DNA of 64,000 nucleotides from a virus (taxonomy: Duplodnaviria > Caudoviricetes), in IMG/VR virus record IMGVR_UViG_3300032332_002377, one strand, 5' to 3'. The notes below the pieces were generated by a model. It was given only the letters and a program-made list of their open reading frames with translations, made no database searches and had not been told where the DNA came from. This document shows, piece after piece, positions 3,972 through 48,248 of the stretch. Each line of letters opens with the position of its first letter. The stretch's first letter is position 1. A program made the position numbers and the translations under genes.

Positions 3972-3983
3972 CTAATTATTTAA

Positions 3984-4532: not shown

Positions 4533-4556
4533 AAAATTATTTATTCCCCTTCATGT

Positions 4557-10231: not shown

Positions 10232-10546
10232 ATGACCTTTAGAGAATATTTTGATATTAATAAGATAGGTCCAAGACATCTTAAGAATGATGGTTTACTA
10301 AATACGTCAGTTCCTCATAAGCCCATAGCTGATATGCATAAAGTTAAGAAAGCAGATGGTACAGAAGAATTAAAAAACAATAATAAAAAGACTGTTATTT
10401 TAAACAATAGGGAAAAAATAAAAGAACTTTTACGTAAACATAATTATATTGCTACTCTTAAACCTGGTGAAACAAAGAAATTAATAGGTACTAGTATCTC
10501 AGTATCATTAAACCCTCAAGGAGGTTATATTCTAACTAATGACTAA
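10232..10546 (+). CDS. Small basic late protein with capsid-targeting-like N-terminus
   Basis: MTFREYFD; TAAATA 5 nt upstream. Confidence 0.6.
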   Translation: MTFREYFDINKIGPRHLKNDGLLNTSVPHKPIADMHKVKKADGTEELKNNNKKTVILNNREKIKELLRKHNYIATLKPGETKKLIGTSISVSLNPQGGYILTND

Positions 10547-31395: not shown

Positions 31396-31405
31396 GACGT
31401 ATATA

Positions 31406-33217
31406 TTAACTACTATATTCTATATAATCAACTTTGCGTGTAATACCGTTGCTCTTCTCTAAGAAGATAATATCACCAGTAGCAGCTTTAATGCTTTCTT
31501 TTCTATGACTTATAACCATTGCACATTCATCAAACTTCTCTACTCTCTCCTTAAGAATATTAATTACTAGCTCAACACCCTTCTCATCAAGGGATGAATC
31601 AAACAACTCATCATATATAGAGAAATTAAAAGATACATTACCTTGAAGCCTGCGAATATCCATGAAAGCAAAAAGACATGCTAAATCAACATTCTTTCTT
31701 TCTGCTCCACTAAAATTGAAATACGAGCAATCTTTGCCTTTATCATCAACAATAGTTTCTTCAAAATACTCATTAAAAGTGCATAAACAATTAGCATCCA
31801 TTTTTTTCAGGTAATATGCTAGCTTGGTGTTGAATAATTGTAAGATTTTTTTAACAATAAAAGATTTAACACCTTCTTCAGACATAATAAATTTAACAGT
31901 ATCTAGTTTATTAAGATTTTGCTTTATTTCATCAATTTGTAATTTAGATTTTTCTTGTTTTTCTTTATTTTCTTTAATAATGTCATCAAAATTTGTAACG
32001 TTAGATTGTATTTCTTTTAGATCAACATCTAGTTCTTTTTGCCATTGATTGAGCTGGTTTAATCGCGACACTAGAGAATCTTTCTCTTGATTCTGCATTT
32101 TTATTTCATGAATCTTTTGTCTTGTTACTTCTGTTTTTTCTGTTAAAAGTGTCTTTGCTTGCTTATATTTCTGTTCTTCGGTTTTTAGCGTCTTGTTATC
32201 ACTAGTAAAATTATCAATTTGTTCTTGTATTTTTTTCTTTTCTTCTTTTATATGTTTCTTATCTTTATCCTCAATTGAGCGTAAACAGATGGGACAAAGA
32301 TCAGCATCAGTCCCTACATTTTTAATTTTCTTTTCAAGCTCAGAAATTAAAGTAATATTAGTAGTGAGATCTTCTCTTAATTCATTTATTTTTTTATCTG
32401 CTTTTTCAATTTTTTGCTCCGTTTCCTCTATAGTTTTTTCAAGATCATCTATACTTTTAGTGGAGAACGTATCCAATCTTTTTTGTATTGTTTGTATTTC
32501 TTTCTGATTATTTTCTTTACGTAAAGCATACTTTTCATGCTTTTTATTTCTCTCTTCAAGAAATTTGTCTTTTTGCTTTTCAAGAGAAATTAAATTTGTA
32601 CTCATTTCATCATATTTTGCTGAAAGAATATTGAAGCTGTTCTTTTTCTCATTAAGTTCGTTCTTAGCCTCAGCTAACATAGAGCCAAAAATAGAAAGAT
32701 TAAAGATGTCTTCAATAAACTTGCGCTTTTCTTGTTTCTTCTTAGCCATGAAAGGTATGTGATTATTCAATGTCATAATCACACAATTCTGAAATATCTC
32801 AGGTGTACAGTCAAATTTTTCCATAATAAACGTGCTTGTGTTGCTTATGCTGTCTCTTGTCTTGTCTTCACCATTAACAAAAATAAAACACTTGGATGGA
32901 TCTAGAGTTCTTATAATTTGAATCTCATCTTTAGCAGTAGGCGTAATGACATCAACATCTAATACAATCTCACATGTCTTCTTATTGATATTATTGATAA
33001 TAAATTCTTTCTTAAGGTCTCTAAGTGTTTCACCAAATACAGCGAAATAAATTGCATCTGCTACAGTGGATTTACCTACACCGTTTCTTCTGTCCTCTTT
33101 ATCTTTATTGATACCTGTAATAATATGAAGGCCGGATTTAAAATCTATAACTACAGGTGTATTGCCTACAGACAGAAAGTTTTTAATAGTTATTTTCTTA
33201 AAAAATATTTTTTTCAT
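31406..33217 (-). CDS. gp46: Recombination endonuclease subunit, SbcC/Rad50-like
   Basis: NGVGKST, coiled coil with CPIC hook, FSGAE signature, DELFDSSLD, ISH. Confidence 0.95.
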   Translation of the reverse strand: MKKIFFKKITIKNFLSVGNTPVVIDFKSGLHIITGINKDKEDRRNGVGKSTVADAIYFAVFGETLRDLKKEFIINNINKKTCEIVLDVDVITPTAKDEIQIIRTLDPSKCFIFVNGEDKTRDSISNTSTFIMEKFDCTPEIFQNCVIMTLNNHIPFMAKKKQEKRKFIEDIFNLSIFGSMLAEAKNELNEKKNSFNILSAKYDEMSTNLISLEKQKDKFLEERNKKHEKYALRKENNQKEIQTIQKRLDTFSTKSIDDLEKTIEETEQKIEKADKKINELREDLTTNITLISELEKKIKNVGTDADLCPICLRSIEDKDKKHIKEEKKKIQEQIDNFTSDNKTLKTEEQKYKQAKTLLTEKTEVTRQKIHEIKMQNQEKDSLVSRLNQLNQWQKELDVDLKEIQSNVTNFDDIIKENKEKQEKSKLQIDEIKQNLNKLDTVKFIMSEEGVKSFIVKKILQLFNTKLAYYLKKMDANCLCTFNEYFEETIVDDKGKDCSYFNFSGAERKNVDLACLFAFMDIRRLQGNVSFNFSIYDELFDSSLDEKGVELVINILKERVEKFDECAMVISHRKESIKAATGDIIFLEKSNGITRKVDYIEYSS

Positions 33218-34284
33218 TTACATTTTTTATATAGTTCTTGACAATAGGTTATTATACTTTGTTTGTCTTGAATATCTAGCATATTGACAAATTCTTCAAT
33301 AGCTTTCTCAATATCAATGCCAGACATATCAACACCTGTATCATCTACAACAGCAATATTAGTGTTAACCTTGTAATCAATTGATGCAGAGAATGGTTTA
33401 TAATTAGATATCTTTTTAATTAAAGCATCTATGTTGTCAGATGTTACCTGCTTATCAACTATGAGTTTTACTATATTATTTTCAACAATATCTTTAAGAT
33501 TTATTTTTTCTTTGGATGTTTGATCCATGAGTTCAGATAGTGATAACTTCTTGTGTTTAGGTGATGATGTATTCTCAAAGAATGTTAAGCTCGAATCGCT
33601 TAAGTCAAGAATATAGTAACCTTTTGTTGACCCTGTATCTCCAAAGTCCATCTCAAATGGGTTGCCTACATAAACAATTCTCTTACCATTGTAATCGCGC
33701 TCTTCTCTGAGATGAAAGTGTCCTGTGAGAACAAGATCTGCTTTATCAAGCAATTCAGATGTTTTCGTTCCTTTATCGCAAAGTTTATAGCTATTCATTT
33801 TAAAACTCTCAATTTCAAAATGGCCAAATATTATATCTTGCTTAGGCTTGTCTTGTATAGATTCTCCCCATGGTACAAAAAGAATTTTCTTACCAAATAA
33901 AGTTGCAGATGTTGTAGATGAAATTACTGTAACGTTCTTTCTTTCATTGAAGATAGATATAGAATTAACATCAGATCTATCTTTGTAATATGCGTCATGA
34001 TTGCCAACTAATAGGACTATATTAAACTTCTTCCAGAGCTTAAAGATTTCATTTACTGTGTGTAATGTGTTTACAGCAATTTCATCTCTATAGTGAAATA
34101 TGTCACCAAGAATAAAGATGTCTGTAATTTTTTTACTTGTTAATTCTTGTGCGAGCCATTTAGCCCAACTTAGTGCAGTGTCATGCCAATAGATGCTGTT
34201 CTGATGTACACCTATATGTAAATCAGCAATACAGCATACTTTATTACTTTGAGTAATTATTTCTATTTTATGATCCTGTGGCAT
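33214..34284 (-). CDS. gp47: Recombination nuclease subunit, SbcD/Mre11-like
   Basis: ADLHIG, GDIFH, GNHD, GHFE, GHFH; start at 34284 or 34305. Confidence 0.95.
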   Translation of the reverse strand: MPQDHKIEIITQSNKVCCIADLHIGVHQNSIYWHDTALSWAKWLAQELTSKKITDIFILGDIFHYRDEIAVNTLHTVNEIFKLWKKFNIVLLVGNHDAYYKDRSDVNSISIFNERKNVTVISSTTSATLFGKKILFVPWGESIQDKPKQDIIFGHFEIESFKMNSYKLCDKGTKTSELLDKADLVLTGHFHLREERDYNGKRIVYVGNPFEMDFGDTGSTKGYYILDLSDSSLTFFENTSSPKHKKLSLSELMDQTSKEKINLKDIVENNIVKLIVDKQVTSDNIDALIKKISNYKPFSASIDYKVNTNIAVVDDTGVDMSGIDIEKAIEEFVNMLDIQDKQSIITYCQELYKKCK

Positions 34285-34855
34285 TATAATTATCGTTTTC
34301 TTCATTGCTAGATGGGTCTACATATATGTTATAAGGATTATAACCAGCTTCCCCATCGCATGAAGTTAACAGATCAGTGTAAATTTTATCGCGATAGTTT
34401 GTAACAGTCTCGTGATGCTTCTTTTCTTTCTTAATGCGATTAATAAATGCATGAAAAGCAATTGTTGTAAAATATGAGAAAGGGCTAAACCCACTATTAA
34501 GTTTAAATTTTTTATTCTTAAGAGCAGATACCATTTTTACAATTGCATCCCCTATCATATCGTCCTTATAGGAGTAGTTTATAAAATTTGGAGCATAAGA
34601 AAGACCATGTGCTATTTTATTAATTGAATCACCAAGTTTAATAGAAATCTTATCACTTAAATAAAATTTTTGAATCTCATCCTCAAACTCTCTGCTATTG
34701 ACATAGTGTACTTTTTCTTTACCTCTTGGTTTTTTGGGTTCAACTAACGATGCAGGAATTGCTAATGCACCTACATCCTGATCAAGAACTGGAGCTGTCT
34801 CTTTTTGCTTATTCTTGGATTTCTTTGATTTGGTATGTGATATTTTCTTTTTCAT
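34268..34855 (-). CDS. gp55: Late-transcription sigma factor
   Basis: HYVNSREF, IAHGLS..PNFINYSYKDDMIGD, PFSYFTTIAFHAFINRIKKEKK. Confidence 0.93.
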   Translation of the reverse strand: MKKKISHTKSKKSKNKQKETAPVLDQDVGALAIPASLVEPKKPRGKEKVHYVNSREFEDEIQKFYLSDKISIKLGDSINKIAHGLSYAPNFINYSYKDDMIGDAIVKMVSALKNKKFKLNSGFSPFSYFTTIAFHAFINRIKKEKKHHETVTNYRDKIYTDLLTSCDGEAGYNPYNIYVDPSSNEENDNYNATGS

Positions 34856-36263
34856 AAAGTGTTTTGCGTTTTAAAAAATGTTGTTCTCCATAGATCAGAT
34901 TATCAGCAATATCGACTATTATAAGCTTATCCTTGTCCTTATGCAACCGCAAACCTCTTCCGATTGATTGTAATATCTTTATTTTTGACTTTCCGCCACC
35001 AGCAAAAACTATATAATGCAGATTTTTAATGTTAATACCTGTGGAAAATATCTTAGATATGGCAATAACAACAACATTGTCTGCTTCTTCCATAGCTTTC
35101 TTAATCTTCTCTCTTTCCTCTACTTCAACTTCTCCACGGATAAAATAAACGCGCTTATTAGTTAATACGCTGTTAAAAAGCGCTTCTAAGATTAATCCAT
35201 GCTCTATATAATCAATTAATATTAAAGTGTTTTTCTGAATCTTATTAGACAGTTTAGCAAGAAAATTATTTCTAAAAGAATTTTTAATTAAAAATTCGGT
35301 TTCTGTACGATATTTATCAGTAGCATTATAATTGTATTCGGGATAAACTGGTTTGATTTTATAATTTAGTAGAAATGCTACAACAGTTGCTGGTGTCACA
35401 AAACTTTCCAATCTTAATTGGTAGCTTGATTTTTCATAAATTACAGGGCCAATTTTTCCTATAATATTCCATTGATCGAGATTATCTTCAGGCAGTGTTC
35501 CTGTAAATCCAAACCTGAAAGGTGTTTTAATTTTTTTAATGAGCTTATTGATTTCATTACCTCTTCTAAGCTTATGCACCTCGTCAATAACTAAAACATC
35601 AATGTCTTCTATCCAAGTTAAATCACTATTTTTACTCTGAAGTATACCGAGATTAGCAACAACAGTATTTGTTGATGGATTTAATTCACTACTTCCTGTC
35701 CATTTGCTGGTAGTAAAAGGTACTTTATAAGATAAAAAATCACTTGATGTTTGTTCTGCAAGGCTCAAATCAGGAACAATAATTAGACATTTAAAATTTT
35801 TATTCATAGTCCAGATATTTGATAATAGGGAAGCCATAGTTAATGTCTTACCGCCTGCAGTTGCTAGCATTACAGTGCCTCTACCAAGTGTTAAAGCTTT
35901 TGTTACAATTTCACTCTGATAGTCTCTAAGCTCAAGCGCTAGGGGATAAGGCTTGAGCGAGAAAGTGGGGTTCTTGTGCCATGTGTTGTTTGCTGGTGCA
36001 ATTTCATGAAGAAATTCAGGAGTTATTTCAATTGTTTGAGGATATTGATTATTTGTTAAAAATTTTTTAATTTCAAAATATATACAAGGCTCAAATCTAC
36101 CAGTTGGTGTAATAGCATAGGTACGCTGCGGTATAAAGCGAGAAAACCGTCTCGCAAATCTTGCAGCTTCATTTTTAACTGAAAAGTGTTCTCTTATCTC
36201 ATTAAACAGATCACCAGAAAGAATACCCAATCTTTTTTTATCGTCGAAACTTATACTAATCAT
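34809..36263 (-). CDS. uvsW: SF2 DNA helicase
   Basis: LRDYQ, ATAGGKT, DEVH, GFTGT, STGINIKNLH, QSIGRGLR. Confidence 0.93.
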   Translation of the reverse strand: MISISFDDKKRLGILSGDLFNEIREHFSVKNEAARFARRFSRFIPQRTYAITPTGRFEPCIYFEIKKFLTNNQYPQTIEITPEFLHEIAPANNTWHKNPTFSLKPYPLALELRDYQSEIVTKALTLGRGTVMLATAGGKTLTMASLLSNIWTMNKNFKCLIIVPDLSLAEQTSSDFLSYKVPFTTSKWTGSSELNPSTNTVVANLGILQSKNSDLTWIEDIDVLVIDEVHKLRRGNEINKLIKKIKTPFRFGFTGTLPEDNLDQWNIIGKIGPVIYEKSSYQLRLESFVTPATVVAFLLNYKIKPVYPEYNYNATDKYRTETEFLIKNSFRNNFLAKLSNKIQKNTLILIDYIEHGLILEALFNSVLTNKRVYFIRGEVEVEEREKIKKAMEEADNVVVIAISKIFSTGINIKNLHYIVFAGGGKSKIKILQSIGRGLRLHKDKDKLIIVDIADNLIYGEQHFLKRKTLYEKENITYQIKEIQE

Positions 36264-36649
36264 GTTGTTTCAAGTTTTATAATATCAATTAGATTTTTTA
36301 AATCATAAGAAGCGCTAGATAATGTTTTTTCTGCTTTCTCTAGCAATTCTACAATTAACTGCAGCTCATTAATTTTTTTATCATACTCTTTCAATTCATC
36401 TGCATTTTCAACTAATTTATCTAAAACTGGGAGAGATGGTTTAACAGCAGAATTTTCTAATATTTTTTCTTTTATATTTCTCTTGAGACTGTCTTTTTTG
36501 TTCTTTAAATCAAACATCTCAGACTTATGCCTAATACATCTACCAGCCCATTTATGTTTAATTCCAGGTAATCTAAGTGTATAATCCTTAAGATACAGCT
36601 CATCTATCTTTAAATCGTTCTCTAATTCTTTTATATAGTCGTTAAGCAC
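36260..36649 (-). CDS. uvsY: Recombination mediator
   Basis: DLKIDE...LPGIKHKW, helical; directly upstream of uvsW. Confidence 0.75.
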   Translation of the reverse strand: MLNDYIKELENDLKIDELYLKDYTLRLPGIKHKWAGRCIRHKSEMFDLKNKKDSLKRNIKEKILENSAVKPSLPVLDKLVENADELKEYDKKINELQLIVELLEKAEKTLSSASYDLKNLIDIIKLETT

Positions 36650-36682
36650 ATATAAATAATAGTATAAAGGTATTAATTATCA

Positions 36683-36937
36683 ATGATATCATTCAAGCAA
36701 TATTATAATGAACAAAATACGGCTGGAGCTGGAGGCGCATTAGGCTCTTGGACTAGTACAGGTGGTCAATTTCCGGCATCTGGTGATGCAGGTTATGCAC
36801 CAGGAGATGCAAGACAATTGAGTCCTTATGGTCCTGCGGGCGCTGTACTTGGTGCAAAAATAAAAGGCAAGGGTAAGAAAAAGAAAGTAAAGCTTAATAT
36901 ACAGCGCAGACCGTTGCCAGGTTTGACATTGAAGTAA
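36683..36937 (+). CDS. Small Gly/Lys-rich protein with capsid-targeting-like N-terminus
   Basis: MISFKQYYNEQ; TATAAATA at 36651-36658. Confidence 0.6.
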   Translation: MISFKQYYNEQNTAGAGGALGSWTSTGGQFPASGDAGYAPGDARQLSPYGPAGAVLGAKIKGKGKKKKVKLNIQRRPLPGLTLK

Positions 36938-36944
36938 ATATATA

Positions 36945-37361
36945 ATGGATTTAGGTCATTGGCTTGTTAATGAAGGTGTTATTTTTAATGAAGAAACATT
37001 TGGCTTTATTTACGAAATAATTAATACTGCAACTGGTAAGAAATATATTGGCAAAAAACAGTGTAAAACAAAATTAAAAAGAAAACCATTAAAAGGTAAA
37101 AAAAATAAACGAATTGAAATAAAGGATTCAGATTGGAGAGAGTATACTAGTTCATCAACTGAGCTAAATGAAGATATAAAAAAGTATGGTAAAAATAAAT
37201 TTATTTTTAAAATTATAAAAATTTGTGGCAGCAAGTGGGAGCTTGCTTATTTTGAAATTAAAGAACAAATAGACAAAAATGTACTATTCCGGGAAGATTA
37301 TTATAACGGTATTATAAATGTCAGAATAGGGCGGCCTCCAAAAAAATTGCTTGAAGACTGA
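36945..37361 (+). CDS. Small GIY-YIG-family nuclease
   Basis: FGFIYEI...KKYIGKK, WREYTSSS, E...YYN. Confidence 0.75.
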   Translation: MDLGHWLVNEGVIFNEETFGFIYEIINTATGKKYIGKKQCKTKLKRKPLKGKKNKRIEIKDSDWREYTSSSTELNEDIKKYGKNKFIFKIIKICGSKWELAYFEIKEQIDKNVLFREDYYNGIINVRIGRPPKKLLED

Positions 37362-37383
37362 TAATTTATAGGCATACTATATT

Positions 37384-37947
37384 GTGCTTAGGGAACTAGT
37401 AAAAGACCAATATAATCTTCAGATTTTTAATTATGAGTATATATTTAAAAATTATATTGAGAGGCAATTTATAGATGATCTCTATAGCTATAAACTCTTA
37501 GAAAAAAAGAAAGACTCAACTGTACGGCGCTTGTTTATTCATCACAATATTCATGCAATATGTGATTATATTCTAAAAGAGAAAAAGAAAGGTAAACAAG
37601 TACTGTTTTTTGACTATCATAATTTATTGGAAGGTGAGATATTAGAATATATAGAAGAAAGCAGAATTAAAAGCTATCTTAATTACACCTATCATAAGAT
37701 AAAATCTACACTGCCAATGCGCATATATTTCTCTACTTTTTCTTTTGAATACTTTATACATAAGTATGAGAAGAATGCAGGCATAGGTATAGAAACTATG
37801 CTTAAAATTAGAAACTTAGCAGAAAATAACGGTTTTGAGAAGTTTACCTTTGAAAAAGTAAAGAAATTTGTTAAAAGAGAAGAACTAACCTTTTTAGATA
37901 AAACCTATTTTAATAGCTTAAAATCTAAACAATTACTCATTAATTGA
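37384..37947 (+). CDS. Hypothetical protein
   Basis: TTGAAG-16-CATACT promoter 5 nt before GTG. Confidence 0.6.
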   Translation: MLRELVKDQYNLQIFNYEYIFKNYIERQFIDDLYSYKLLEKKKDSTVRRLFIHHNIHAICDYILKEKKKGKQVLFFDYHNLLEGEILEYIEESRIKSYLNYTYHKIKSTLPMRIYFSTFSFEYFIHKYEKNAGIGIETMLKIRNLAENNGFEKFTFEKVKKFVKREELTFLDKTYFNSLKSKQLLIN

Positions 37948-37959
37948 TAAATATTAATA

Positions 37960-38391
37960 ATGAGATTTCTTCAAAAGCTTAATGAATATGTTGTTTCTTT
38001 AGAGCAAGATGAGCAGTCAATTAACACGCAAGCAGCTCCTGCAGAGCCAGCTCCTAAAACTAAGAAAGAAATACAGAAAGTTGATGTTGCTCCAGAGGGT
38101 TATACTGAGATGGTTAGGCTAATGGCAAAAGCATTAGTAATGAATGTTCCTCCGGAGGCTATTGATGATCTATTTACTACAAAAGTAACAGGTGAGAACG
38201 TTGAAGCTATAAGAGAAGGGTTAGAAGATTTAATTAACACATCATCCAATTATCAAGACAATCCCGAAAGATTAGAAAATCCTCATTTTAAAGCATTCTA
38301 TAATTCGGTTAATGAGAAAAATTTTTATAAAAAATTTAAAGAAGTTGTTAGCATGATGAAGAAATATAGTAACGATATAGATTTTTCTTGA
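37960..38391 (+). CDS. Late hypothetical protein with capsid-targeting-like N-terminus
   Basis: TAAATA 6 nt upstream; MRFLQKLNEYVVSLEQ. Confidence 0.65.
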   Translation: MRFLQKLNEYVVSLEQDEQSINTQAAPAEPAPKTKKEIQKVDVAPEGYTEMVRLMAKALVMNVPPEAIDDLFTTKVTGENVEAIREGLEDLINTSSNYQDNPERLENPHFKAFYNSVNEKNFYKKFKEVVSMMKKYSNDIDFS

Positions 38392-38392
38392 T

Positions 38393-39532
38393 ATGAAAAG
38401 GTATAGGCCGTTAGATGAGATTTATGTAAAAGAATCGTGTGGTAAAGTTCTGCCGCCGCTTCCTAGGCAAATACTTGAGCGTGTAAAAATATCTGTTCAA
38501 ACTGACACAGGAGAAACAGAAAACTATACAGTTTCAGATTCTTGGTATAATAAAGCTATTAAAGATAAACTTTCTGTTGGAAGTCAAAATCTTGATACTT
38601 ACTATGAATTAATACATTTAAGATGTGTTGATGCTGGTATTCTTCCAGCTGGTCATGAAGATATAAATGCAAATGAAGTAAAAGTTTTATACAATTATAT
38701 TCTTTCCATAACGGGTCAAGATAAAATTAATGCATTTTTTGAGAAATTTGTAGATGAAGGTCAGAAAGCAGCTGCAATATTTGTAAGTGAAATAGATAAG
38801 AATGAAAAATTTAATGTATTTGATTTGCTGAGTTCCTTTTATGGTGTAAAATTTGTTTATAGTGAAGATGTTTTTAAACTAAGGCCATTAGCTGCAGCTC
38901 AAAAAACTAGAGGCGCGCCAGGACCAGGAGAGGCTTTTATAGCATTTTTCTTCTTTAGTAAAAAGCCTGAGGTTGGTGATTTAAGTATACCTGCAGGTAA
39001 CAAATTTGTTGAAATAGAAATAAAGAAACAAGGTGGTAGAATAGGCAAAGGTCTTAATATAGAGAGTGGTAAATTAGGAAGACGTCTATATCCAAATCTT
39101 AAAACTTTAGACACAAATGTATTAAAGGAATTTGTTGAATTTTATAATTTACAAACAGTGGGCGACATTCTCCTGGGTAATAAAACATTTCCTGGTATTA
39201 CAGGAGTTAGAGCTATTCCAAATCAAAACTTAGATCAGAATTTTTTTGAGCAATCATTAGATTATTTTGTTAAAGCTTTTAGTAGTTTAGAGGTTTTGCA
39301 ACAATTTATAGGTGTAATACAAATGAAGAACTATTTTTCAAAAATAAAAGAATTTGATAGTATATTAATTTTTACTGAAACCGGTTTAGCTATAGGATTT
39401 AAGAGAGAATATGTGCTGAACAATTCTACTTCTGATGTGGCTAATAACCTGCTTGCTAAGAAAGTTTATTTAAAAAGAAAGACTGAAGCTGGTATATTAT
39501 TTGATTCAGATGGCTTCAGAATTGTTATATGA
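38393..39532 (+). CDS. Putative PD-(D/E)xK nuclease
   Basis: GPGE...VGDL...VEIEIKKQGGR restriction-endonuclease-like core. Confidence 0.55.
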   Translation: MKRYRPLDEIYVKESCGKVLPPLPRQILERVKISVQTDTGETENYTVSDSWYNKAIKDKLSVGSQNLDTYYELIHLRCVDAGILPAGHEDINANEVKVLYNYILSITGQDKINAFFEKFVDEGQKAAAIFVSEIDKNEKFNVFDLLSSFYGVKFVYSEDVFKLRPLAAAQKTRGAPGPGEAFIAFFFFSKKPEVGDLSIPAGNKFVEIEIKKQGGRIGKGLNIESGKLGRRLYPNLKTLDTNVLKEFVEFYNLQTVGDILLGNKTFPGITGVRAIPNQNLDQNFFEQSLDYFVKAFSSLEVLQQFIGVIQMKNYFSKIKEFDSILIFTETGLAIGFKREYVLNNSTSDVANNLLAKKVYLKRKTEAGILFDSDGFRIVI

Positions 39533-40764
39533 ACTCATTCAGAGAATATCTCTTATTAGAAGGTGGAGCTGCTGGGCATATGGCTCATCCTTTTGATCTT
39601 CAGAGCATAAAAAGAGGTACTGACTTGATTCAATTTTTTAAAGCAGCTGTAAAGAGTGTTGAGAGTCAGAAAACTGCAGTTAAGTTTGATGGTCTTAATG
39701 CTAGTGTTAAGATCATAAAGAATGAAGATGGCAGGTATGAATATGCTCTTGATAGAGGCAGTGCAAAAGAAATAGATATAAAAGGTATTACGCAGGCTAA
39801 TCTTGAGCAAAGATTTGAGAAAGGACATGGTATGATAGATGTTGTTAATTTTATACTGCCTATTTTAAATAGTACTATTGATGTTACAAGTGAAGAAATA
39901 AAAAAATTAAACTTACTTAAGCCAGGTGTTTTTCTTAATATTGAGTATATTACCAAGCAAACTAACGTTACACAGTATGATAGAAATATGGTTGTTATAC
40001 ATGGTATAAATCAATTTATTCCGCGTATTGGTAAGAATAACAGAATATTAAGCAGATCTGCTGTTGAAATACCTTATAATAAAAATGTTTTAAACGAGTT
40101 TGTTAAAAAAATTAAGCCAGTATTTGCGCAACATGATTTTGAAGTGTTTGGTCCTACAGGTACAAAATTTGATAAAAAACCAAATTTTGAATCAATTTTA
40201 AACAAACCTTTCGGTATTGCGTTTACTGAAACTGATACAGAAACAAGAACTCTCGGTAATTGGCTCAAGACAGCAAGAAATCCAAAAAATATTTTAATAA
40301 AAAATATTCAAGGTAAAAAAGTACCTGCTATGTCAAAGAATTATTATCAATATGTACTAGGTGGGTCACCTATCAGTAAGCTTGTGGGTGAAGATAAAGC
40401 AGCACAAAAATCTGTTGCTGATGGAGCAATCTTTTACCAAGCTACAAGATTGCTTGGTAATGAGTTGTTGAACTCTCTCTCCTCAGAAGCAGGTGAACTC
40501 AAGCAACATGAGGGTATAGTTATAAGAGATAATAGACTTTCTACTGTACCTGTAAAAATAACGGGAGAATTTATCTTGAAAGGATTAGCTAGTCCTTTCA
40601 AGAAATCAGAGGATGATGAAGATTTGGAAAATACTACAGGTGTATCAGGTTTAATTGGGTCATTAAATTACGCTAACACGACAGGTGATTATATGAATAA
40701 TAAGAGCAAGTATAGATTGCCTCCTTATGATGCACCGCCAAATCCAGGAGCTTATACAGGATGA
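39529..40764 (+). CDS. ATP-dependent ligase-fold nucleotidyltransferase (DUF6267-like)
   Basis: EGGAAGHMAHPFD; motif I VKFDG; NIEY; motif IV HEGIVIR; motif V VKITG. Confidence 0.7.
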   Translation: MNSFREYLLLEGGAAGHMAHPFDLQSIKRGTDLIQFFKAAVKSVESQKTAVKFDGLNASVKIIKNEDGRYEYALDRGSAKEIDIKGITQANLEQRFEKGHGMIDVVNFILPILNSTIDVTSEEIKKLNLLKPGVFLNIEYITKQTNVTQYDRNMVVIHGINQFIPRIGKNNRILSRSAVEIPYNKNVLNEFVKKIKPVFAQHDFEVFGPTGTKFDKKPNFESILNKPFGIAFTETDTETRTLGNWLKTARNPKNILIKNIQGKKVPAMSKNYYQYVLGGSPISKLVGEDKAAQKSVADGAIFYQATRLLGNELLNSLSSEAGELKQHEGIVIRDNRLSTVPVKITGEFILKGLASPFKKSEDDEDLENTTGVSGLIGSLNYANTTGDYMNNKSKYRLPPYDAPPNPGAYTG

Positions 40765-41315
40765 AATTTAGTGAGTATTATCTTTATCTAGAGCAGGCCG
40801 CAAAATCACTTGTTATACTTCCTGGTGGATTTAAGCCGCCACATAAAGGTCATTTTGAAGCATTAAAGTATTTGTTGAAAAATTCTAATGCAAATAATGC
40901 TATAGTATTTATAGGTAAAAAAGATAGAGATGGTATTACTCAGGAACAGTCTCTAAAGATATGGGATATATATAAAAAGTATATACCAGCAAATATAGAG
41001 ATTATTGCTGTAACAGGAGCAGATAAAGCAGGTAGAGAGGCAACACCATTGAGCATGACTTATGATTTTATTGAGGACAATAAGAATAATTATGCTGGGT
41101 TTTTTGTTGGCGCAGGACAAGAGGATATGAATAGGTTTAAAGGATTAGAGAAAGATCAACAAAAATATCCTAATACAAAGATCATAGCTATACCGCCTCA
41201 ATTTAATAGAATTTCTGGTACAGAAACAAGAAACAAATTGAAAGGAGGTATTTTAGATTTTATACCTCAAGAAGTAAAAGAAAAAGAAGAAATTAAATCT
41301 ATTCTAAAAGCTTAA
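40761..41315 (+). CDS. HIGH-motif nucleotidyltransferase (cytidylyltransferase / NMNAT-like)
   Basis: PGGFKPPHKGH, GQED..RF, ISGTETR. Confidence 0.82.
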   Translation: MKFSEYYLYLEQAAKSLVILPGGFKPPHKGHFEALKYLLKNSNANNAIVFIGKKDRDGITQEQSLKIWDIYKKYIPANIEIIAVTGADKAGREATPLSMTYDFIEDNKNNYAGFFVGAGQEDMNRFKGLEKDQQKYPNTKIIAIPPQFNRISGTETRNKLKGGILDFIPQEVKEKEEIKSILKA

Positions 41316-42024
41316 TAACTTCAGCAAAAATCTGTTGTTTTGTTTCTTTAGATTCTTTGCTAAGAACACCTTTTAAAGCTTCAATCAAGTCACTACCGCC
41401 TCTGTTGAGAGCATTGTATAGATCAATTTCAGTTTCTTCATATAGGCCGCCCATGCTCTGAACACTCTTCTTGAAGTCCTCAAAATCTTTATACCCAAAT
41501 ACAGAATTAAGATTGTCGTGAGCTTTGCTTATTTTATCAAGAACCCAAGCTTCAACTTTTGCATCACAACCTGCTTTTACCATGAGACTATAAATCATTG
41601 TTGAAAGCTTGAAAATGCGATAGACCAGCTGTTTTGCCATATATGTATCGCTATCTGTATCCTCAGCCTCCATACCACATACACCGCCACACTCTTCACA
41701 ATCCTCATCGTTCTTTCGATTTGCTACACAAGCCTGACATTTATTACATTTGCAGTTGCCGCCTTTTGCAGCACAAACTGTATTAATTTCTTCGTCTTCA
41801 ACAGGCGTGATGGTAGGTCCTTTAGGATTAGGTGTACCAGGCTTGTTGATTGGTGTTGTGACTAGAACTTTTTGACCCTTTTGAGGTAATTTAACGTTCT
41901 GAAGTTTGTCTGGACTTAAGCCTGCGCCAGATGCGTTATCACCCTGAATGCCCATGGAACCAGTAAATTCATTTATTTTATGTTTATATGCTTCATTAAG
42001 CTGCTCAAAGTCTCTTCTAAACAT
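41299..42024 (-). CDS. Late protein with a Cys cluster, probable internal head protein
   Basis: TAAATA 5 nt upstream; MFRRDFEQLNEAY; CKCNKCQAC..CEECGGVC; EAWVLDKISKA. Confidence 0.65.
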   Translation of the reverse strand: MFRRDFEQLNEAYKHKINEFTGSMGIQGDNASGAGLSPDKLQNVKLPQKGQKVLVTTPINKPGTPNPKGPTITPVEDEEINTVCAAKGGNCKCNKCQACVANRKNDEDCEECGGVCGMEAEDTDSDTYMAKQLVYRIFKLSTMIYSLMVKAGCDAKVEAWVLDKISKAHDNLNSVFGYKDFEDFKKSVQSMGGLYEETEIDLYNALNRGGSDLIEALKGVLSKESKETKQQIFAEVIKLLE

Positions 42025-42057
42025 ATAATTATTTATTAATAATACCTAAATAATATT

Positions 42058-42348
42058 ATGACATTATTTGAGAAAGCTTTTTTAAATTTGCTGAATAATG
42101 ATATTATTAATGAAAATAAGGGTCATAGGTGTACAAAGGTCACAGGGCAGATGTCATCTACAAGATCTGATAAAAAGTATATGAGATGTGCTAGAGTTAA
42201 CGGTAAGCTGAAGAGAGTACATTACGGTGATCCAAATTTAAGAATAAAGAAATCCAATTCCAAGCGCAGAAAAAGTTTCAGAGCTCGTCACAAATGTTCT
42301 TCCGCAAAGCCAGGTACACCAAAATACTATAGCTGTAAAAATTGGTAG
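42058..42348 (+). CDS. Small basic Cys/His protein (DUF6321-like)
   Basis: VHYGDPNLRIKK...RRKSFRARHKC...YYSCKNW; late promoter. Confidence 0.7.
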   Translation: MTLFEKAFLNLLNNDIINENKGHRCTKVTGQMSSTRSDKKYMRCARVNGKLKRVHYGDPNLRIKKSNSKRRKSFRARHKCSSAKPGTPKYYSCKNW

Positions 42349-42363
42349 AATATAAGTAATATT

Positions 42364-42771
42364 ATGATTAGTTTTCGAGAATTTCATAATAAAAATGTGC
42401 TCGGTGTGAGGGAGCAAATACATTTATTGGATCATCCTGAATTAGGAGAAATACCTGTTAAGGTTGATACAGGCAATGAAGCATACAACGTATTGCATGG
42501 TGTAAATATAAAAGATAAAGGCGATCATGTCACCTTTAAATCTGTAAATAACAAAGAATTAACTTTACCAAAAATTGATACAGTCACTATTCACATAGGT
42601 AGCGGTGTTAAAGAGGAAAGACCGGTAGTAAAGCTAAGCTTTAATATGAATGGTATAGAGTATAAAGATGTTCCATTTAGCATAGCCGATAGGTCAGAAA
42701 ATGAAGAAGCAGTATTGCTGGGAGAACCTTTTCTTAAACAAACAAATTCAGTTGTTGATGTTAAAAAGTAA
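42364..42771 (+). CDS. Retropepsin-like aspartic protease (RimK-associated 'Zn_protease' family)
   Basis: VKVDTGN, ERPVV, FSIADRS, VLLG; N-terminus MISFREF. Confidence 0.8.
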   Translation: MISFREFHNKNVLGVREQIHLLDHPELGEIPVKVDTGNEAYNVLHGVNIKDKGDHVTFKSVNNKELTLPKIDTVTIHIGSGVKEERPVVKLSFNMNGIEYKDVPFSIADRSENEEAVLLGEPFLKQTNSVVDVKK

Positions 42772-43086
42772 GTTATTAAAACCTATAGCATTCAATACAT
42801 TTTTAAGATTAAAATGATCAATCTTATTAGTAATAAAAATAGTAGGTGCATAGTGTAATTCACTGTCTATTCTTAGCCCCTTCTCTTCGCCAATGTTTAA
42901 AATATCGTCTATAAAGTCCATTGCACCAAAAGTTTTCAGATATTTCCAATAAAAGTCTTTTTGTTCACATTCTATAAAAACTTCAAGATGAATTGCTTTT
43001 TTTGCAATTAGAGTTAGCTCTCTGAAGCAAGTTATGGAGGTAGGTGGGTTTATAATATCGCCGTTAATAATCAGCGAATGACTCAC
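42748..43086 (-). CDS. Late hypothetical protein
   Basis: TAAATA 5 nt before GTG. Confidence 0.6.
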   Translation of the reverse strand: MSHSLIINGDIINPPTSITCFRELTLIAKKAIHLEVFIECEQKDFYWKYLKTFGAMDFIDDILNIGEEKGLRIDSELHYAPTIFITNKIDHFNLKNVLNAIGFNNLLFNINN

Positions 43087-44767: not shown

Positions 44768-44986
44768 ATGCCTTTAAAATCTGGAAAATCTAATATTGGT
44801 AAGAATGTTGGTGAGCTAATGCGTGCTTATAAGCAAAAGGGTAAAATAGGTGCATCTCACCCAAAGACCAAGAAAGCAGCGCAGAAACAAGCTGTAGCAA
44901 TTGCTTTATCTAAAGCAAAAGAAAGTTTTGAAGACAAAGTCAATAGAATTCTGGCAGAAATTAATAATCTAAAAAATAACAGTTGA
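44768..44986 (+). CDS. Small basic protein (DUF6496-like)
   Basis: MPLKSGKS...KQAVAIALSKA; TATAAATA 5 nt upstream. Confidence 0.7.
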   Translation: MPLKSGKSNIGKNVGELMRAYKQKGKIGASHPKTKKAAQKQAVAIALSKAKESFEDKVNRILAEINNLKNNS

Positions 44987-47513: not shown

Positions 47514-48248
47514 ATGAGAATAGCTGTTTCTGGTGCTGCGTGTCAAGGCAAATCAACTCTTATTCAAGATTTTCTAAAGAACTGGCCAACATATAATCGG
47601 TCAAAAGAAAGCTATAGAGAATTATTAGCAAAAGAAAATCTTAAAATTAATAAGGAGGTAAATCAAGAAGGTCAATGGAAGATACTGAATAGTTTAATTA
47701 ACGATCTTCAATCAACAGCAAAAACAGATAAAATTATTTTTGACAGATGCCCTCTTGATAATCTTGCCTATTCCATGTGGAGTTTTGATAAGCAGGCTAC
47801 CGATATTGATAAAGAGTTTATTGATAAATGTATACCACTTGTTGCTGAAAGCATGAGACATCTTGATATTATCTTCTTTGTTCCAATTACAAAATTTTCA
47901 CCTGTAAACATCGAGAAGAAAGAAACAAGAGAAACTGATAAAGAATACATTAAAGAAGTAGATAATATATTCAAAGCTATTCAGAGATCTTATTATACAG
48001 GTAAGTCGCCCTTTTTCCCTAAAGATGACTCCCCTGCAATTATTGAAATTTTCGGTACACCTGAAGAGCGCATTAAAATGATAGAGCTTTATCTCAATAG
48101 TGACGGTGTTCTTCATGGAGAAGATCAGAGTGTATTAAACCCTGAAAACCTGGATTATATAGAAACGCTTCTCAAAGCCCAGAAGCAAGCAAAAGAGCAA
48201 GAAGATGAAGAAGCAAGATTGAGAAAAAAGTTCCTTTTTAATAAATAA
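47514..48248 (+). CDS. P-loop nucleotide kinase-like protein (AAA_28/NadR-type)
   Basis: SGAACQGKST, FDRCPLD. Confidence 0.75.
   Translation: MRIAVSGAACQGKSTLIQDFLKNWPTYNRSKESYRELLAKENLKINKEVNQEGQWKILNSLINDLQSTAKTDKIIFDRCPLDNLAYSMWSFDKQATDIDKEFIDKCIPLVAESMRHLDIIFFVPITKFSPVNIEKKETRETDKEYIKEVDNIFKAIQRSYYTGKSPFFPKDDSPAIIEIFGTPEERIKMIELYLNSDGVLHGEDQSVLNPENLDYIETLLKAQKQAKEQEDEEARLRKKFLFNK

What the first reader, a model, noticed from the sequence alone, without database searches (positions are those of the whole stretch)
37960..41315. Late four-gene module of probably capsid-packaged enzymes: nuclease + ligase-fold NTase + NMNAT-like NTase
Seen: four tightly coupled genes (1-nt gap, then two ATGA overlaps) follow a single TAAATA late promoter at 37948. 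They begin MRFLQKLNE..SLEQ, MKRYRPLDEIYVKES, MNSFREYLLLEG and MKFSEYYLYLEQ. The last three carry a PD-(D/E)xK-like core, KxDG/EGxV/K ligase motifs and a HIGH-type nucleotidyltransferase. Known: T4 internal proteins (e.g. IPIII, MKTYQEFIAE) use such a peptide for head packaging and gp21 cleavage after Glu. Phage RNA ligases repair tRNA cut by anticodon nucleases, and NMNAT enzymes are part of phage NAD-rebuilding anti-defence pathways. Inference: these enzymes are made late, packaged, and act on injection before any phage gene is expressed. They could be an injected counter-defence kit (RNA repair, NAD+ rescue or signal tampering) or a host-takeover adenylylation system. I do not know of a description of this combination.
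Basis: partly seen in the sequence, partly recalled or inferred. Interest (0 to 1): 0.85.

Follow-up and report, generated by a model that had tools for sequence, protein, structure and literature searches.

The report
Head-tagged ligase-like and NMNAT-like phage enzymes
An uncultured T4-like freshwater phage has a late four-gene chain (small protein, restriction-nuclease-like protein, RNA-ligase-shaped enzyme, NMNAT-like enzyme); the last two always travel together or fused in related phages and carry the kind of short N-terminal tag that T4 uses to load proteins into its head, so they are probably injected with the DNA, but their substrates are unknown.

Summary
Four co-oriented genes (1-nt gap, two ATGA overlaps) follow a GATAAATA late-type box.

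Gene identities:
- g2: HinP1I/MspI-like PD-(D/E)xK protein.
- g3: divergent covalent nucleotidyltransferase; best fold match T4 Rnl1.
- g4: HxGH adenylyltransferase, nearest to NadM-type NMNAT/PPAT.

g3 and g4 are fused (both orders) or adjacent in 74 of 80 related IMG/VR loci. The full g1-g4 order recurs in about 21.

New here: g4 belongs to the cyanophage 'cytidylyltransferase' family T4-GC190. Published proteomics found that family in virions of S-SM1, S-SCSM1, S-SZBM1 and S-CREM2. Those cultured-phage proteins, like g3, begin M-x-[ST]-F-x-x-F-L-x-E. This matches the T4 capsid-targeting determinants (residues 4, 7, 8, 10) and the gp21 L-x-E cut site. All five related contigs checked encode a gp21-type protease.

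The NAD-salvage reading is disfavoured: no NadV in any of the five contigs. Packaging is likely but unproven for this phage, and the chemistry is unknown.

This scan found the same module on other genomes before, with similar verdicts. The virion presence of NMNAT-like proteins is already published. The capsid tag, the ligase partner and the fusions are not.

The parts
37946..37953 (+). GATAAATA late-promoter-like box, 6 nt before the g1 ATG
   Evidence: The same motif at the same spacing occurs upstream of g1 in relatives and upstream of the gp21 gene in L082/L083. A gp55 gene is in the window.
37960..38391 (+). g1: 143-aa acidic, mostly helical protein of unknown function. It has a variant leader (MRFLQKLNE, L-N-E at residues 7-9).
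   Evidence: no family match. The family occurs upstream of g2/g3 in 26-28 loci.
38393..39532 (+). g2: 379-aa PD-(D/E)xK-type protein resembling type II restriction endonucleases of the HinP1I/MspI kind. Its N-terminal leader has the form Y-[KR]-x-L-x-E-[IV]-Y.
39529..40764 (+). g3: 411-aa covalent (lysine) nucleotidyltransferase of the ligase/capping superfamily. It is an NTase domain only, with an invariant GHMxHPFD block, a disordered 11-16-aa leader and a disordered C-tail (353-411).
39529..39561 (+). g3 leader MNSFREYLLLE: F4, Y7, L8 and L-L-E at residues 9-11, directly before GGAAGHM. This is the candidate capsid-targeting propeptide and gp21-type cleavage site.
   Evidence: T4 determinants from PMC9026906. 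Leaderless homologs start MGGAAGHM. pLDDT is below 50 for residues 1-16.
40761..41315 (+). g4: 184-aa HxGH (HIGH-superfamily) adenylyltransferase and a distant member of the cyanophage 'cytidylyltransferase' family T4-GC190. It has a variant leader, MKFSEYYLYLEQ.
   Evidence: Profile against the PDB: NMNAT MJ0541 at 3.4e-11, NadM-Nudix at 3.2e-9, PPAT at 1.7e-8. 31 of 34 members are nearest to NMNAT but below the cut-offs. The g4 HMM hits S-SCSM1 ORF91, P-SSM2, P-SSM4, S-RIM8 and S-PM2 p142 at 1e-17 to 1e-21.
36651..36937 (+). Context: a perfect TATAAATA (36651-36658), then an 84-aa Gly-rich protein with a basic tail and the leader MISFKQYYNE. This is a candidate internal protein that opens the same + strand block.
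   Evidence: The family occurs in 24 loci with the same leader.
42364..42771 (+). Context: a 135-aa retropepsin-like (RimB/Zn_protease-like) protein with the leader MISFREF.
   Evidence: The family occurs in 18 loci downstream of g3/g4.
34268..34855 (-). Context: gp55-type late sigma factor.
   Evidence: phrog_234, E 3.3e-25.

Best explanation
This is a late-transcribed operon of head-cargo enzymes in a T4-like phage.

Shown:
- The four genes are translationally coupled behind a late-type box.
- g3 is a ligase-superfamily lysine nucleotidyltransferase. g4 is an HxGH adenylyltransferase.
- g3 and g4 form an obligate functional pair: they are fused in either order or adjacent in nearly all relatives.
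- g2 has a restriction-endonuclease-like PD-(D/E)xK core.
- g4 belongs to a family found in the purified virions of several cultured cyanophages.

Inferred:
- The short N-terminal leader (M-x-[ST]-F-[KR]-[EQ]-[FY]-[aliphatic]-x-E) works like the T4 capsid-targeting sequence. It docks the proteins on the scaffolding core of the prohead.
- The gp21-type protease then removes it after L-x-E. For g3 this leaves the invariant GGAAGHM as the new N-terminus.
- The mature enzymes are ejected with the DNA and act before any phage gene is expressed.

Most likely chemistry (weakest step, about 0.3):
- g4 makes or regenerates an adenylylated dinucleotide-type cofactor from ATP and an NMN-like phosphate.
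- g3 uses a nucleotide donor to adenylylate K52 and then seals or marks 5'-phosphate nucleic-acid ends, either phage genome nicks or ends, or cut RNA.
- g2 cuts unmodified host DNA, while the phage DNA is protected by modification. The window encodes folE, queC, queD and queE.
For: Coupling and promoter.

Fold and motifs:
- g3.
- g4.
- g2.

The g3/g4 pair:
- Fused g4+g3 in 37 loci and g3+g4 in 17.
- Adjacent in about 20. Present together in 74 of 80 loci.
- A cultured example is Microcystis phage Mel-JY01.

The leader:
- The strict motif occurs at 26 of 1376 N-termini against 5 of 5897 internal Met positions.
- Aromatic residues at positions 4 and 7 occur at 4.8% of N-termini against 1.1% of internal positions.
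- It sits on at least 6 unrelated families.
- It is conserved as protein, not as DNA: 11-18 of 27 nt identical, with different synonymous codon families.
- It is absent from the sheath, tube and terminase genes.
- It is disordered in the model.
- Leaderless homologs begin exactly at the predicted P1' residue, as MGGAAGHM.

T4 facts:
- The CTS is MKTYQEFIAE. Targeting depends on residues 4 and 7, processing on residues 8 and 10.
- gp21 cuts after (L/I)-x-E.

Support from relatives:
- A gp21-type protease is present in 5 of 5 related contigs.
- Virion proteomes contain the g4 family: S-SM1, S-SCSM1 ORF91, S-SZBM1, S-CREM2.
- Their family membership and their MK[SK]Fxx FLxE leaders were shown here.
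Against: - No proteomics exists for this phage or for any phage with the g3 domain. No g3-like protein has been shown in a virion. S-SCSM1 ORF90 and ORF92 are not g3-like.
- The largest clade, the 565-aa g4+g3 fusions, has no N-terminal leader. It keeps only a leader-like internal linker.
- The conserved L-x-E-G-G junction could be structural rather than a cleavage site.
- g1 and g2 carry only variant leaders. The window's g4 leader is shifted relative to the T4 pattern.
- The module lies among replication and recombination genes, not head genes.
- The gp21 gene of this phage itself could not be checked, because no genome is held.
- Purified-virion proteomes can contain abundant contaminants. 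The S-SCSM1 authors say so themselves.
- The proposed chemistry has no direct support.
Confidence: 0.6

Rival explanations
1. The system is intracellular and not packaged. g3 is simply the phage's own polynucleotide (DNA or RNA) ligase, used in replication, recombination or repair. g4 supplies its nucleotide cofactor. The N-terminal leader has another role or none.
For: - The module sits between uvsW/uvsY/gp46-47 and other DNA-metabolism genes.
- 4 of 5 related contigs, including one rated 100% complete, have no canonical ATP- or NAD-dependent DNA ligase. There, g3 is the only ligase-type gene detected.
- The biggest clade of g4+g3 fusions lacks an N-terminal leader.
Against: - A late-type box with the same spacing as that before gp21.
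- The leader matches the T4 CTS determinants and is shared with unrelated small proteins.
- g4-family proteins are found in virions.
- One contig has both a canonical ligase and g4+g3.
- g3 has no OB or DNA-binding domain after motif V.
- Many marine T4-like phages lack a ligase anyway (my own knowledge).
Confidence: 0.2
2. An RNA-repair kit of the T4 Rnl1 type. g3 reseals tRNAs cut by host anticodon nucleases, whether it is injected or made late.
For: - Motif I is K-x-D-G-x-N, as in several RNA ligases (the comparison is from memory).
- BFVD neighbours include many annotated RNA ligases.
Against: - g3 has no Rnl1-type C-terminal tRNA-binding domain.
- There is no Pfam or PDB sequence match to any RNA ligase family.
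- No end-healing enzyme (Pnkp, 2H) was seen in the conserved neighbourhood. The genomes were not searched for Pnkp specifically.
- The constant partner is an HxGH transferase, which known RNA-repair systems do not use.
Confidence: 0.15
3. An NAD+ rescue module. g4 is a true NMNAT that rebuilds NAD+ after depletion by host NADase defences.
For: - The g4 family profile is nearest to NadM-type NMNATs.
- Annotators call relatives NMNAT or NadR.
- An AAA_28 (NadR-kinase-type) protein lies 6 kb downstream.
Against: - No NadV/NAPRTase in 0 of 5 related contigs. A survey of phage NAD systems found that every NadM phage also has NadV (PMC9503650).
- All scores are far below the curated cut-offs, and PPAT scores almost as well.
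- The AAA_28 protein is present only in the 2 closest relatives.
- The constant partner is a ligase-like enzyme, not a salvage enzyme.
Confidence: 0.08
4. The shared N-terminal motif is not a targeting signal. It is either a by-product of AT-rich start regions or a translation-initiation element.
For: The genome is AT-rich. Lys, Phe, Tyr, Asn and Ile codons are common at 5' ends. Several starts share the DNA context TAAATAATATTATG.
Against: - The same residues are written with different synonymous codon families (Ser TCA against AGT, Arg AGA against CGA). Nucleotide identity is only 11-18 of 27.
- Enrichment is 20-fold or more over internal Met positions.
- The motif is absent from highly expressed structural genes.
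- It is conserved in GC-richer cyanophages on virion-detected proteins.
Confidence: 0.05

Closest known systems
T4 internal proteins IPI, IPII, IPIII and Alt (CTS-targeted, gp21-processed, injected head proteins)
   Same: - A short N-terminal propeptide with aromatic residues at 4 and 7, an aliphatic residue at 8 and Glu at 10 or 11, followed by a small residue.
- Late expression.
- The phage lineage encodes gp21-type protease and gp55.
- The same leader is shared by otherwise unrelated proteins.
- Alt shows that a sizeable enzyme can be cargo.
   Different: - The cargo here would be a ligase-like enzyme, an HxGH transferase and a nuclease-like protein. None of these is known as T4 head cargo.
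- Packaging and cleavage have not been shown for this phage.
- g1 and g2 have divergent leaders.
Cyanophage 'cytidylyltransferase' T4-GC190 (e.g. S-SCSM1 ORF91 'NMNAT', P-SSM4 PSSM4_155, S-PM2 p142)
   Same: - Homologous HxGH domain (g4 HMM E 1e-17 to 1e-21; reciprocal phmmer 4e-25 to module g4 proteins).
- Same type of leader.
- Found in T4-like phages of aquatic bacteria.
- Detected in purified virions in four or five studies.
   Different: - The cyanophage proteins are about 380-420 aa with extra N- and C-terminal regions, and mostly have no recognisable g3 domain.
- The window's g4 is a minimal 184-aa form, coupled to g3.
- No biochemical function is known for either.
ATP-dependent RNA ligases (T4 Rnl1; also Rnl2, Rnl3, Rnl5 and the fungal Trl1 ligase domain)
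   Same: The nucleotidyltransferase fold, and motifs I, III, IIIa, IV and V with the catalytic lysine in K-x-D-G.
   Different: - No detectable sequence-family membership.
- A very short region before motif I, carrying a unique invariant GHMxHPFD block.
- Large insertions.
- No C-terminal substrate-binding domain.
- An obligate HxGH partner.
NadM/NadR-type NMN adenylyltransferases and PPAT (HIGH superfamily)
   Same: The (H/T)xGH and S-x-T-x-x-R motifs, and the best profile matches.
   Different: - Far below family thresholds.
- No NadV partner.
- Substrate unknown.
Polyvalent proteins of phages (Iyer et al. 2017, PMC5512222)
   Same: Relatives fuse the g4 and g3 domains with unrelated enzymes:
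- SOD, plastocyanin and GNAT in L037.
- SET in L064.
- A Pol-beta NTase and an HExxH zincin-like domain in Flavobacterium phage immuto.

Such proteins are predicted to be packaged and injected.
   Different: - In the window the parts are separate, individually tagged genes.
- The HExxH partner is absent from the window.
HinP1I/MspI-type type II restriction endonucleases, and the virion-packaged restriction enzymes of chloroviruses (the latter from memory)
   Same: g2 has the E...D...ExK core, and its best, though weak, fold and feature matches are to this group.
   Different: - There is an extra N-terminal region of about 135 aa.
- No cognate methyltransferase is adjacent.
- Activity is untested.

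Membership tests
Covalent nucleotidyltransferase (ligase/capping) superfamily - g3 | Motif I K-x-D-G with the catalytic lysine | tested here: met
   K52, D54, G55 and N57 are invariant in 34 homologs sharing 38-92% identity.
Covalent nucleotidyltransferase (ligase/capping) superfamily - g3 | Motifs III, IIIa, IV and V in order | tested here: met
   N137-x-E139, H158-G159, E328-G-x-V-x-R333 and P341-x-K343-x-T-G are invariant.
Covalent nucleotidyltransferase (ligase/capping) superfamily - g3 | Nucleotidyltransferase fold | tested here: met
   [not shown]
Covalent nucleotidyltransferase (ligase/capping) superfamily - g3 | Covalent lysyl-NMP formation | not testable with these tools
   Needs a labelling assay.
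T4 Rnl1 family | Sequence-family membership and the C-terminal tRNA-binding domain | tested here: not met
   No Pfam hit at E<=1. No PDB sequence hit with the family profile at E<=10. The structured part ends at motif V and the tail is disordered.
Pfam DUF6267 (PF19782) | A match to the family model | tested here: inconclusive
   Atlas neighbours carry it (0.96-0.97), but hmmscan of 34 members against the local Pfam copy gave no match.
HIGH-superfamily (HxGH) nucleotidyltransferases - g4 | The (H/T)xGH motif and the C-terminal S-x-T-x-x-R motif | tested here: met
   H31 and R157 are invariant. PPHKGH and ISGTETR are present in the window protein.
NMN adenylyltransferase (NadM/NadR) - g4 | A score above the curated family cut-off | tested here: not met
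   The window protein scores 15.5 bits against a cut-off of 127 (NF002243). 31 of 34 members are nearest to this family, but all are below the cut-off.
NMN adenylyltransferase (NadM/NadR) - g4 | Co-occurrence with NadV/Nampt in phages | tested here: not met
   NAPRTase-family matches in 0 of 5 related contigs, while the controls were positive. The rule comes from PMC9503650.
NMN adenylyltransferase (NadM/NadR) - g4 | NMN + ATP -> NAD+ activity | not testable with these tools
   Needs an enzyme assay.
Cyanophage cytidylyltransferase T4-GC190 - g4 | Homology of the catalytic domain | tested here: met
   The g4-family HMM hits seven cultured-phage members at 1e-17 to 1e-21. ORF91 hits module g4 proteins by phmmer at 4e-25. 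The window protein itself is linked only through the family HMM.
PD-(D/E)xK nuclease superfamily - g2 | An E / (P)D / (D/E)xK catalytic core on the conserved strands | tested here: met
   E180, D196, E209 and K211 are invariant in 20 homologs down to 25% identity.
PD-(D/E)xK nuclease superfamily - g2 | Restriction-endonuclease-like fold | tested here: inconclusive
   [not shown]
T4-type capsid-targeted cargo | N-terminal propeptide with aromatic residues at 4 and 7, an aliphatic at 8 and Glu at 10 (the CTS determinants) | tested here: met
   g3: F4, Y7, L8, E11. Relatives begin MISFKQFVLE and MITFKQFLLE. Cyanophage g4-family proteins begin MKSFLQFLKE and similar. g4 in the window is shifted, and g1/g2 are variant only.
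T4-type capsid-targeted cargo | A gp21-type prohead protease in the genome | tested here: met
   Peptidase_S77 above the cut-off in 5 of 5 related contigs. The window's own genome is not held.
T4-type capsid-targeted cargo | Late transcription | tested here: met
   A conserved ATAAATA box as found before gp21, and gp55 is present. No expression data.
T4-type capsid-targeted cargo | Presence in virions and removal of the propeptide | not testable with these tools
   Published only for g4-family homologs, and without N-terminal mapping.

The most novel reading that the evidence does not exclude
The g3-g4 pair is a new kind of virion-delivered nucleic-acid end-processing machine. A minimal ligase-type lysine nucleotidyltransferase is obligatorily coupled to an HxGH transferase that makes or recycles its dinucleotide cofactor on the spot. 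It is injected with the genome, so that phage DNA or RNA ends are sealed or marked before any gene is expressed and regardless of the host's cofactor pool. Alongside this, the M-x-[ST]-F-x-x-F-L-x-E tag is a conserved capsid-targeting code across Kyanoviridae-like T4 phages, and it would let injected proteomes be read directly from sequence.
Probability: 0.2. Interest if true: 0.85.

Novelty: new variant of a known kind. Interest (0 to 1): 0.66.

Why it matters
- T4-like phages of cyanobacteria, SAR11 and freshwater bacteria are among the most abundant viruses on Earth. T4-GC190 is one of their long-known 'core genes of unknown role'.
- Three findings give that old puzzle a concrete, testable mechanism: the family carries a T4-style head-loading tag, it is tied by gene fusion to an uncharacterised ligase-shaped enzyme, and in some lineages it travels with a restriction-nuclease-like protein. 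Together they point to enzymes injected with the genome.
- If the tag holds up, it can be used to predict injected proteins across this whole phage group. It could also serve as a loading signal for engineering.
- If the g3/g4 chemistry is solved, it may reveal a new immediate-early step of infection.

Tried and rejected
Searches that found nothing:
- blastn of the module against 50,697 phage records: no match.
- tblastn of g1, g2 and g3 against the same set: no match.
- tblastn of the 241-aa neighbour: no match.
- Pfam and PHROGs on g1-g3: nothing.
- PDB sequence search with the g3 profile: nothing at E<=10.

Tools or data not available:
- Whole genome of the window: not held.

Ideas tested and not supported:
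- DUF6267 membership could not be confirmed, and no paper uses the name.
- g1 paralog at 13049: not significant (E 0.26).
- S-PM2 p141/p142/p143 and S-SCSM1 ORF90/92 as g3-like: hhalign and BLASTP not significant. For S-PM2 only a Foldseek hit (E 1.5e-5) and a by-eye motif resemblance remain.
- AAA_28 kinase as a universal partner of g4: rejected, present in 2 of 5 contigs.
- TATAAATA is not enriched in the window as a whole.
- The sigma-70 promoter and terminator scans were uninformative.

Other:
- Sequencing runs: no RNA holder listed. The DNA holders are metagenomes, one of them from a freshwater study.
- No paper on Mel-JY01.
- Not searched: Pnkp, 2H or other RNA end-healing genes in the related genomes.

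Full report
**What is there.** The window is part of an uncultured T4-like myophage.
- It encodes tail sheath, tube and large terminase, gp43 polymerase, gp46/47, UvsW, UvsX, UvsY, gp41, gp32 and a gp55 late sigma factor.
- By gp43, its nearest cultured relatives are cyanomyoviruses and Pelagibacter phage Mosig, at only about 31% identity.
- The same DNA occurs in metagenomes, including a freshwater study.
- The four ORFs, their 1-nt gap and two ATGA overlaps, and the quoted N-termini are exactly as described.

**Timing.**
- The box before g1 is GATAAATA, ending 6 nt before the ATG.
- TATAAATA is not enriched in this AT-rich window as a whole. However, ATAAATA occurs only twice on the + strand of 36500-42800: before the 36683 gene and before g1.
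- It is conserved at the same short spacing upstream of g1 in the closest relatives.
- It has the same form and spacing upstream of the gp21 prohead-protease gene in two relatives.
- I therefore accept a late-type promoter. No expression data were available.

**g3 (411 aa).**
- No Pfam, PHROG or PDB sequence match.
- At least 474 homologs in the large protein collection and at least 485 in IMG/VR.
- An alignment of 34 homologs down to 38% identity keeps motif I (V-K52-x-D-G-x-N), III (N-x-E139), IIIa (H158-G), IV (E328-G-x-V-x-R) and V (P-x-K343-x-T-G), plus a family-specific GHMxHPFD block.
- The AF2 model has mean pLDDT 80.7. Residues 17-352 are confident, while residues 1-16 and 353-411 are disordered.
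- Against predicted viral structures it hits uncultured-phage relatives, then many annotated RNA ligases.
- g3 is therefore a member of the ligase/capping superfamily. It is not a member of Rnl1 or of any named ligase family: it lacks a domain after motif V and has an unusually short region before motif I.
- The Atlas places it beside DUF6267 clusters. I could not confirm that with hmmscan.

**g4 (184 aa).**
- The family keeps (H/T)xGH and S-[GA]-T-x-x-R.
- Its profile matches archaeal NMNAT MJ0541 best (3.4e-11), then Francisella NadM-Nudix (3.2e-9) and PPAT (1.7e-8).
- 31 of 34 members are nearest to an NMNAT model in NCBIfam, but all lie far below the cut-offs.
- It is an HxGH adenylyltransferase whose substrate is open.

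**g2 (379 aa).**
- A narrower family of 29 proteins, with invariant E180, D196, E209-x-K211 and GRIGKG.
- The model is good (pLDDT 82.9), but matches are weak.
- I read it as a restriction-endonuclease-like PD-(D/E)xK protein with moderate confidence.

**g1.** No recognisable relatives outside this phage group.

**The pair and the module.** I called ORFs in 80 IMG/VR loci and ran iterative HMM searches for the four families.
- g4+g3 fused: 37 loci.
- g3+g4 fused: 17 loci.
- Adjacent separate genes: about 20 loci.
- g4 present beside or within the g3 gene: 74 of 80 loci.
- g4 is homologous to the fused C-terminal domains.
- The full order g1-g2-g3-g4 recurs in about 21 loci besides the window.

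Fusion in both orders is strong evidence that g3 and g4 act together. Further observations:
- Some fusions are giant: L037 reads g4 - Fe/Mn SOD - plastocyanin - g3 - GNAT, and L064 reads g4 - SET - g3.
- In Flavobacterium phage immuto, a g4-like domain sits between a Pol-beta-type NTase and an HExxH region.
- A small homolog of that HExxH region lies just downstream of the fused g4+g3 genes in 25-33 loci.
- These architectures fit the 'polyvalent protein' concept of packaged, injected multi-enzyme polypeptides (PMC5512222).

**The leader.**
- g3 begins MNSFREYLLLE, followed by GGAAGHM. Relatives begin MISFKQFVLE, MITFKQFLLE, MKTFKQY....
- The consensus over unrelated families is M-[IK]-[TS]-F-K-[QE]-[FY]-[FYIL]-x-E.
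- Families carrying it: g3, g4, some g2, one g1, the retropepsin-like protein at 42364, the Gly-rich 84-aa protein at 36683, and the 104-aa protein at 10232.
- The strict motif is found at 26 of 1376 N-termini against 5 of 5897 internal Met positions.
- It is conserved as protein, not as DNA: 11-18 of 27 nt identical, with Ser and Arg written in different codon families.
- It is absent from sheath, tube and terminase.

Published T4 work supplies the comparison:
- The CTS is the first ten residues of IPIII, MKTYQEFIAE.
- Targeting depends on residues 4 and 7, and processing on residues 8 and 10 (PMC9026906).
- gp21 cuts after (L/I)-x-E, for example Alt at ITE-6 and LTE-619 (PMC5694885).

The leader here matches at exactly these positions. 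Three further points fit:
- Homologs without a leader start MGGAAGHM, exactly at the predicted P1' residue.
- In fusions, the linker before GGAAGHM keeps L-x-E and even a vestigial Met-Lys start.
- In L013 and L018, where g2 is missing, g3 carries the g2-type leader.

All five related contigs tested, from both clades, encode a Peptidase_S77 (gp21) protease.

**Link to experiments.**
- The viral fold search pointed to 'cytidyltransferase' proteins of cultured phages.
- Microcystis phage Mel-JY01 has a true g4+g3 fusion. The g4 HMM gives 1.5e-49 and the g3 HMM 2e-18. BLASTP to the window g3 gives 1e-9, and the GHMNHP, KLDGLN and EGIV motifs are present.
- The classic cyanophage 'cytitidyltransferase' T4-GC190 is a g4-family member (1e-17 to 1e-21). 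Examples are S-SCSM1 ORF91, P-SSM2, P-SSM4, S-RIM8, ACG-2014f, S-PM2 p142 and HTVC008M gp130.
- S-SCSM1 ORF91 hits module g4 proteins directly (4e-25).
- The family is in 568 phage records.
- It has been detected in purified virions of S-SM1 (PMC3037559), S-SCSM1 (PMC9602691), S-SZBM1 (PMC9146016) and S-CREM2 (PMC10665884). The S-SCSM1 paper also cites S-CBWM1 and one further phage. Its authors conclude that NMNAT-like proteins are probably carried by virions.
- I found that these cultured-phage proteins begin MKSFSQFLTE, MKKFSAFLKE, MKKFSAFLTE, MRSFLTFLTE and MKSFLQFLKE, each followed by A or T. That is F4, F7, L8, E10 in every case.
- None of the papers I read mentions this.

**What it does.** Packaging and injection is the best-supported part (about 0.7 for g4 and g3, lower for g1 and g2). 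The chemistry is inference.
- *NAD+ salvage is disfavoured.* No NadV in 0 of 5 contigs, against the published rule that NadM phages always have NadV. The AAA_28 kinase at 47514 is confined to close relatives.
- *A plain replicative-ligase role cannot be excluded.* 4 of 5 contigs have no canonical DNA ligase. It fits poorly with late timing, the leader and the lack of an OB domain.
- *My working model.* g4 provides or regenerates the nucleotide donor for g3. g3 adenylylates K52 and seals or marks nucleic-acid ends immediately after injection. g2 attacks unmodified host DNA, while the phage genome is protected by modification. The window encodes folE, queC, queD and queE.

**Relation to earlier notes of this scan.** After forming this reading, I found that the scan had noted the same module on several other genomes, with follow-up reports reaching similar conclusions. 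What I add:
- The tie to T4-GC190 and its published virion proteomes.
- The CTS pattern on cultured-phage proteins.
- The Mel-JY01 fusion.
- The NadV and DNA-ligase censuses.
- The HExxH partner.

**Limits.**
- No genome is held for the window, and there are no proteomics or expression data for this phage.
- Pnkp-type genes were not searched.

Noticed in passing
window 36651-36937: A perfect TATAAATA lies 24 nt before an 84-aa Gly-rich protein with a Lys-rich tail and the leader MISFKQYYNE. It looks like a classic small basic internal protein. The family occurs in 24 related loci.
   Followed up: partly
window 42364-42771: A 135-aa retropepsin-like (Zn_protease/RimB-like, weak Pfam hit) protein with the leader MISFREF. 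It is conserved downstream of g3/g4 in 18 loci. Pelagibacter phage Mosig has a homolog inside a gene annotated as glutathione synthetase.
   Followed up: partly
window 10232-10546: A 104-aa protein beginning MTFREYF, directly after a strong hairpin terminator and a TTAAATAATATT-ATG start context. The gene at 42058 shares that start context.
   Followed up: no
window 41299-42024 (-) and 42058-42348 (+): A 241-aa Cys-rich protein and a 96-aa basic protein (phrog_7595) travel with g3/g4 in about 40 loci, across both clades. Their function is unknown. The 241-aa gene also has ATAAATA 5 nt before its ATG.
   Followed up: partly
window 47514-48248: An AAA_28 (NadR-kinase-type P-loop) protein lies right after queE. 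It is present only in the two closest relatives among the five contigs checked.
   Followed up: partly
window 36945-37361: A SegE-like GIY-YIG endonuclease is held at the same position in 31 related loci. That is unusually stable for a homing-endonuclease-type gene.
   Followed up: no
L037:1431-5662 and L064:2142-5276: Giant single ORFs join g4, Fe/Mn superoxide dismutase, plastocyanin, g3 and a GNAT (L037), or g4, a SET domain and g3 (L064). They look like polyproteins and keep leader-like linkers before the g3 domain.
   Followed up: partly
L053:8161-8580 and relatives; L001:5140-7860: A 140-aa HExxH (zincin-like) protein follows the fused g4+g3 genes in 25-33 loci. It is homologous (E 3e-13) to the segment right after the g4-like domain in the 907-aa Flavobacterium phage immuto protein.
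   Followed up: partly
L028, L032, L037, L039, L041, L045 and others, 10-30 nt upstream of g4+g3: The fused clade has a different conserved upstream motif, ATATTTAT(T/A). It was also seen once before the gene upstream of gp21 in L086. It may be that clade's late box.
   Followed up: partly
L013:7908-9197 and L018:7908-9197: Where g2 is absent, g3 carries the g2-type leader (MSFKSLKDIYAEKC...LPRQ) in front of its own L-x-E|GG junction. It looks as if the body of g2 was deleted in frame.
   Followed up: partly
L089 (S-PM2) 2755-4534; metaG-MbCM1 146268-147374: S-PM2 p141 (T4-GC71) and p142 (T4-GC190) look like one gene split in the old record, since BFVD holds a 591-aa form. Together they show ligase-like motifs before the HxGH domain, though this is not statistically supported. 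The MbCM1 homolog is annotated as NrdB.
   Followed up: partly
L088 (S-SCSM1) 31358-36836: ORF89-93 form a run of five co-oriented genes, all flagged as virion proteins. ORF93 is a DUF3008 protein of the same family as window 44768-44986, which is a conserved neighbour of g3/g4 in 32 loci.
   Followed up: partly
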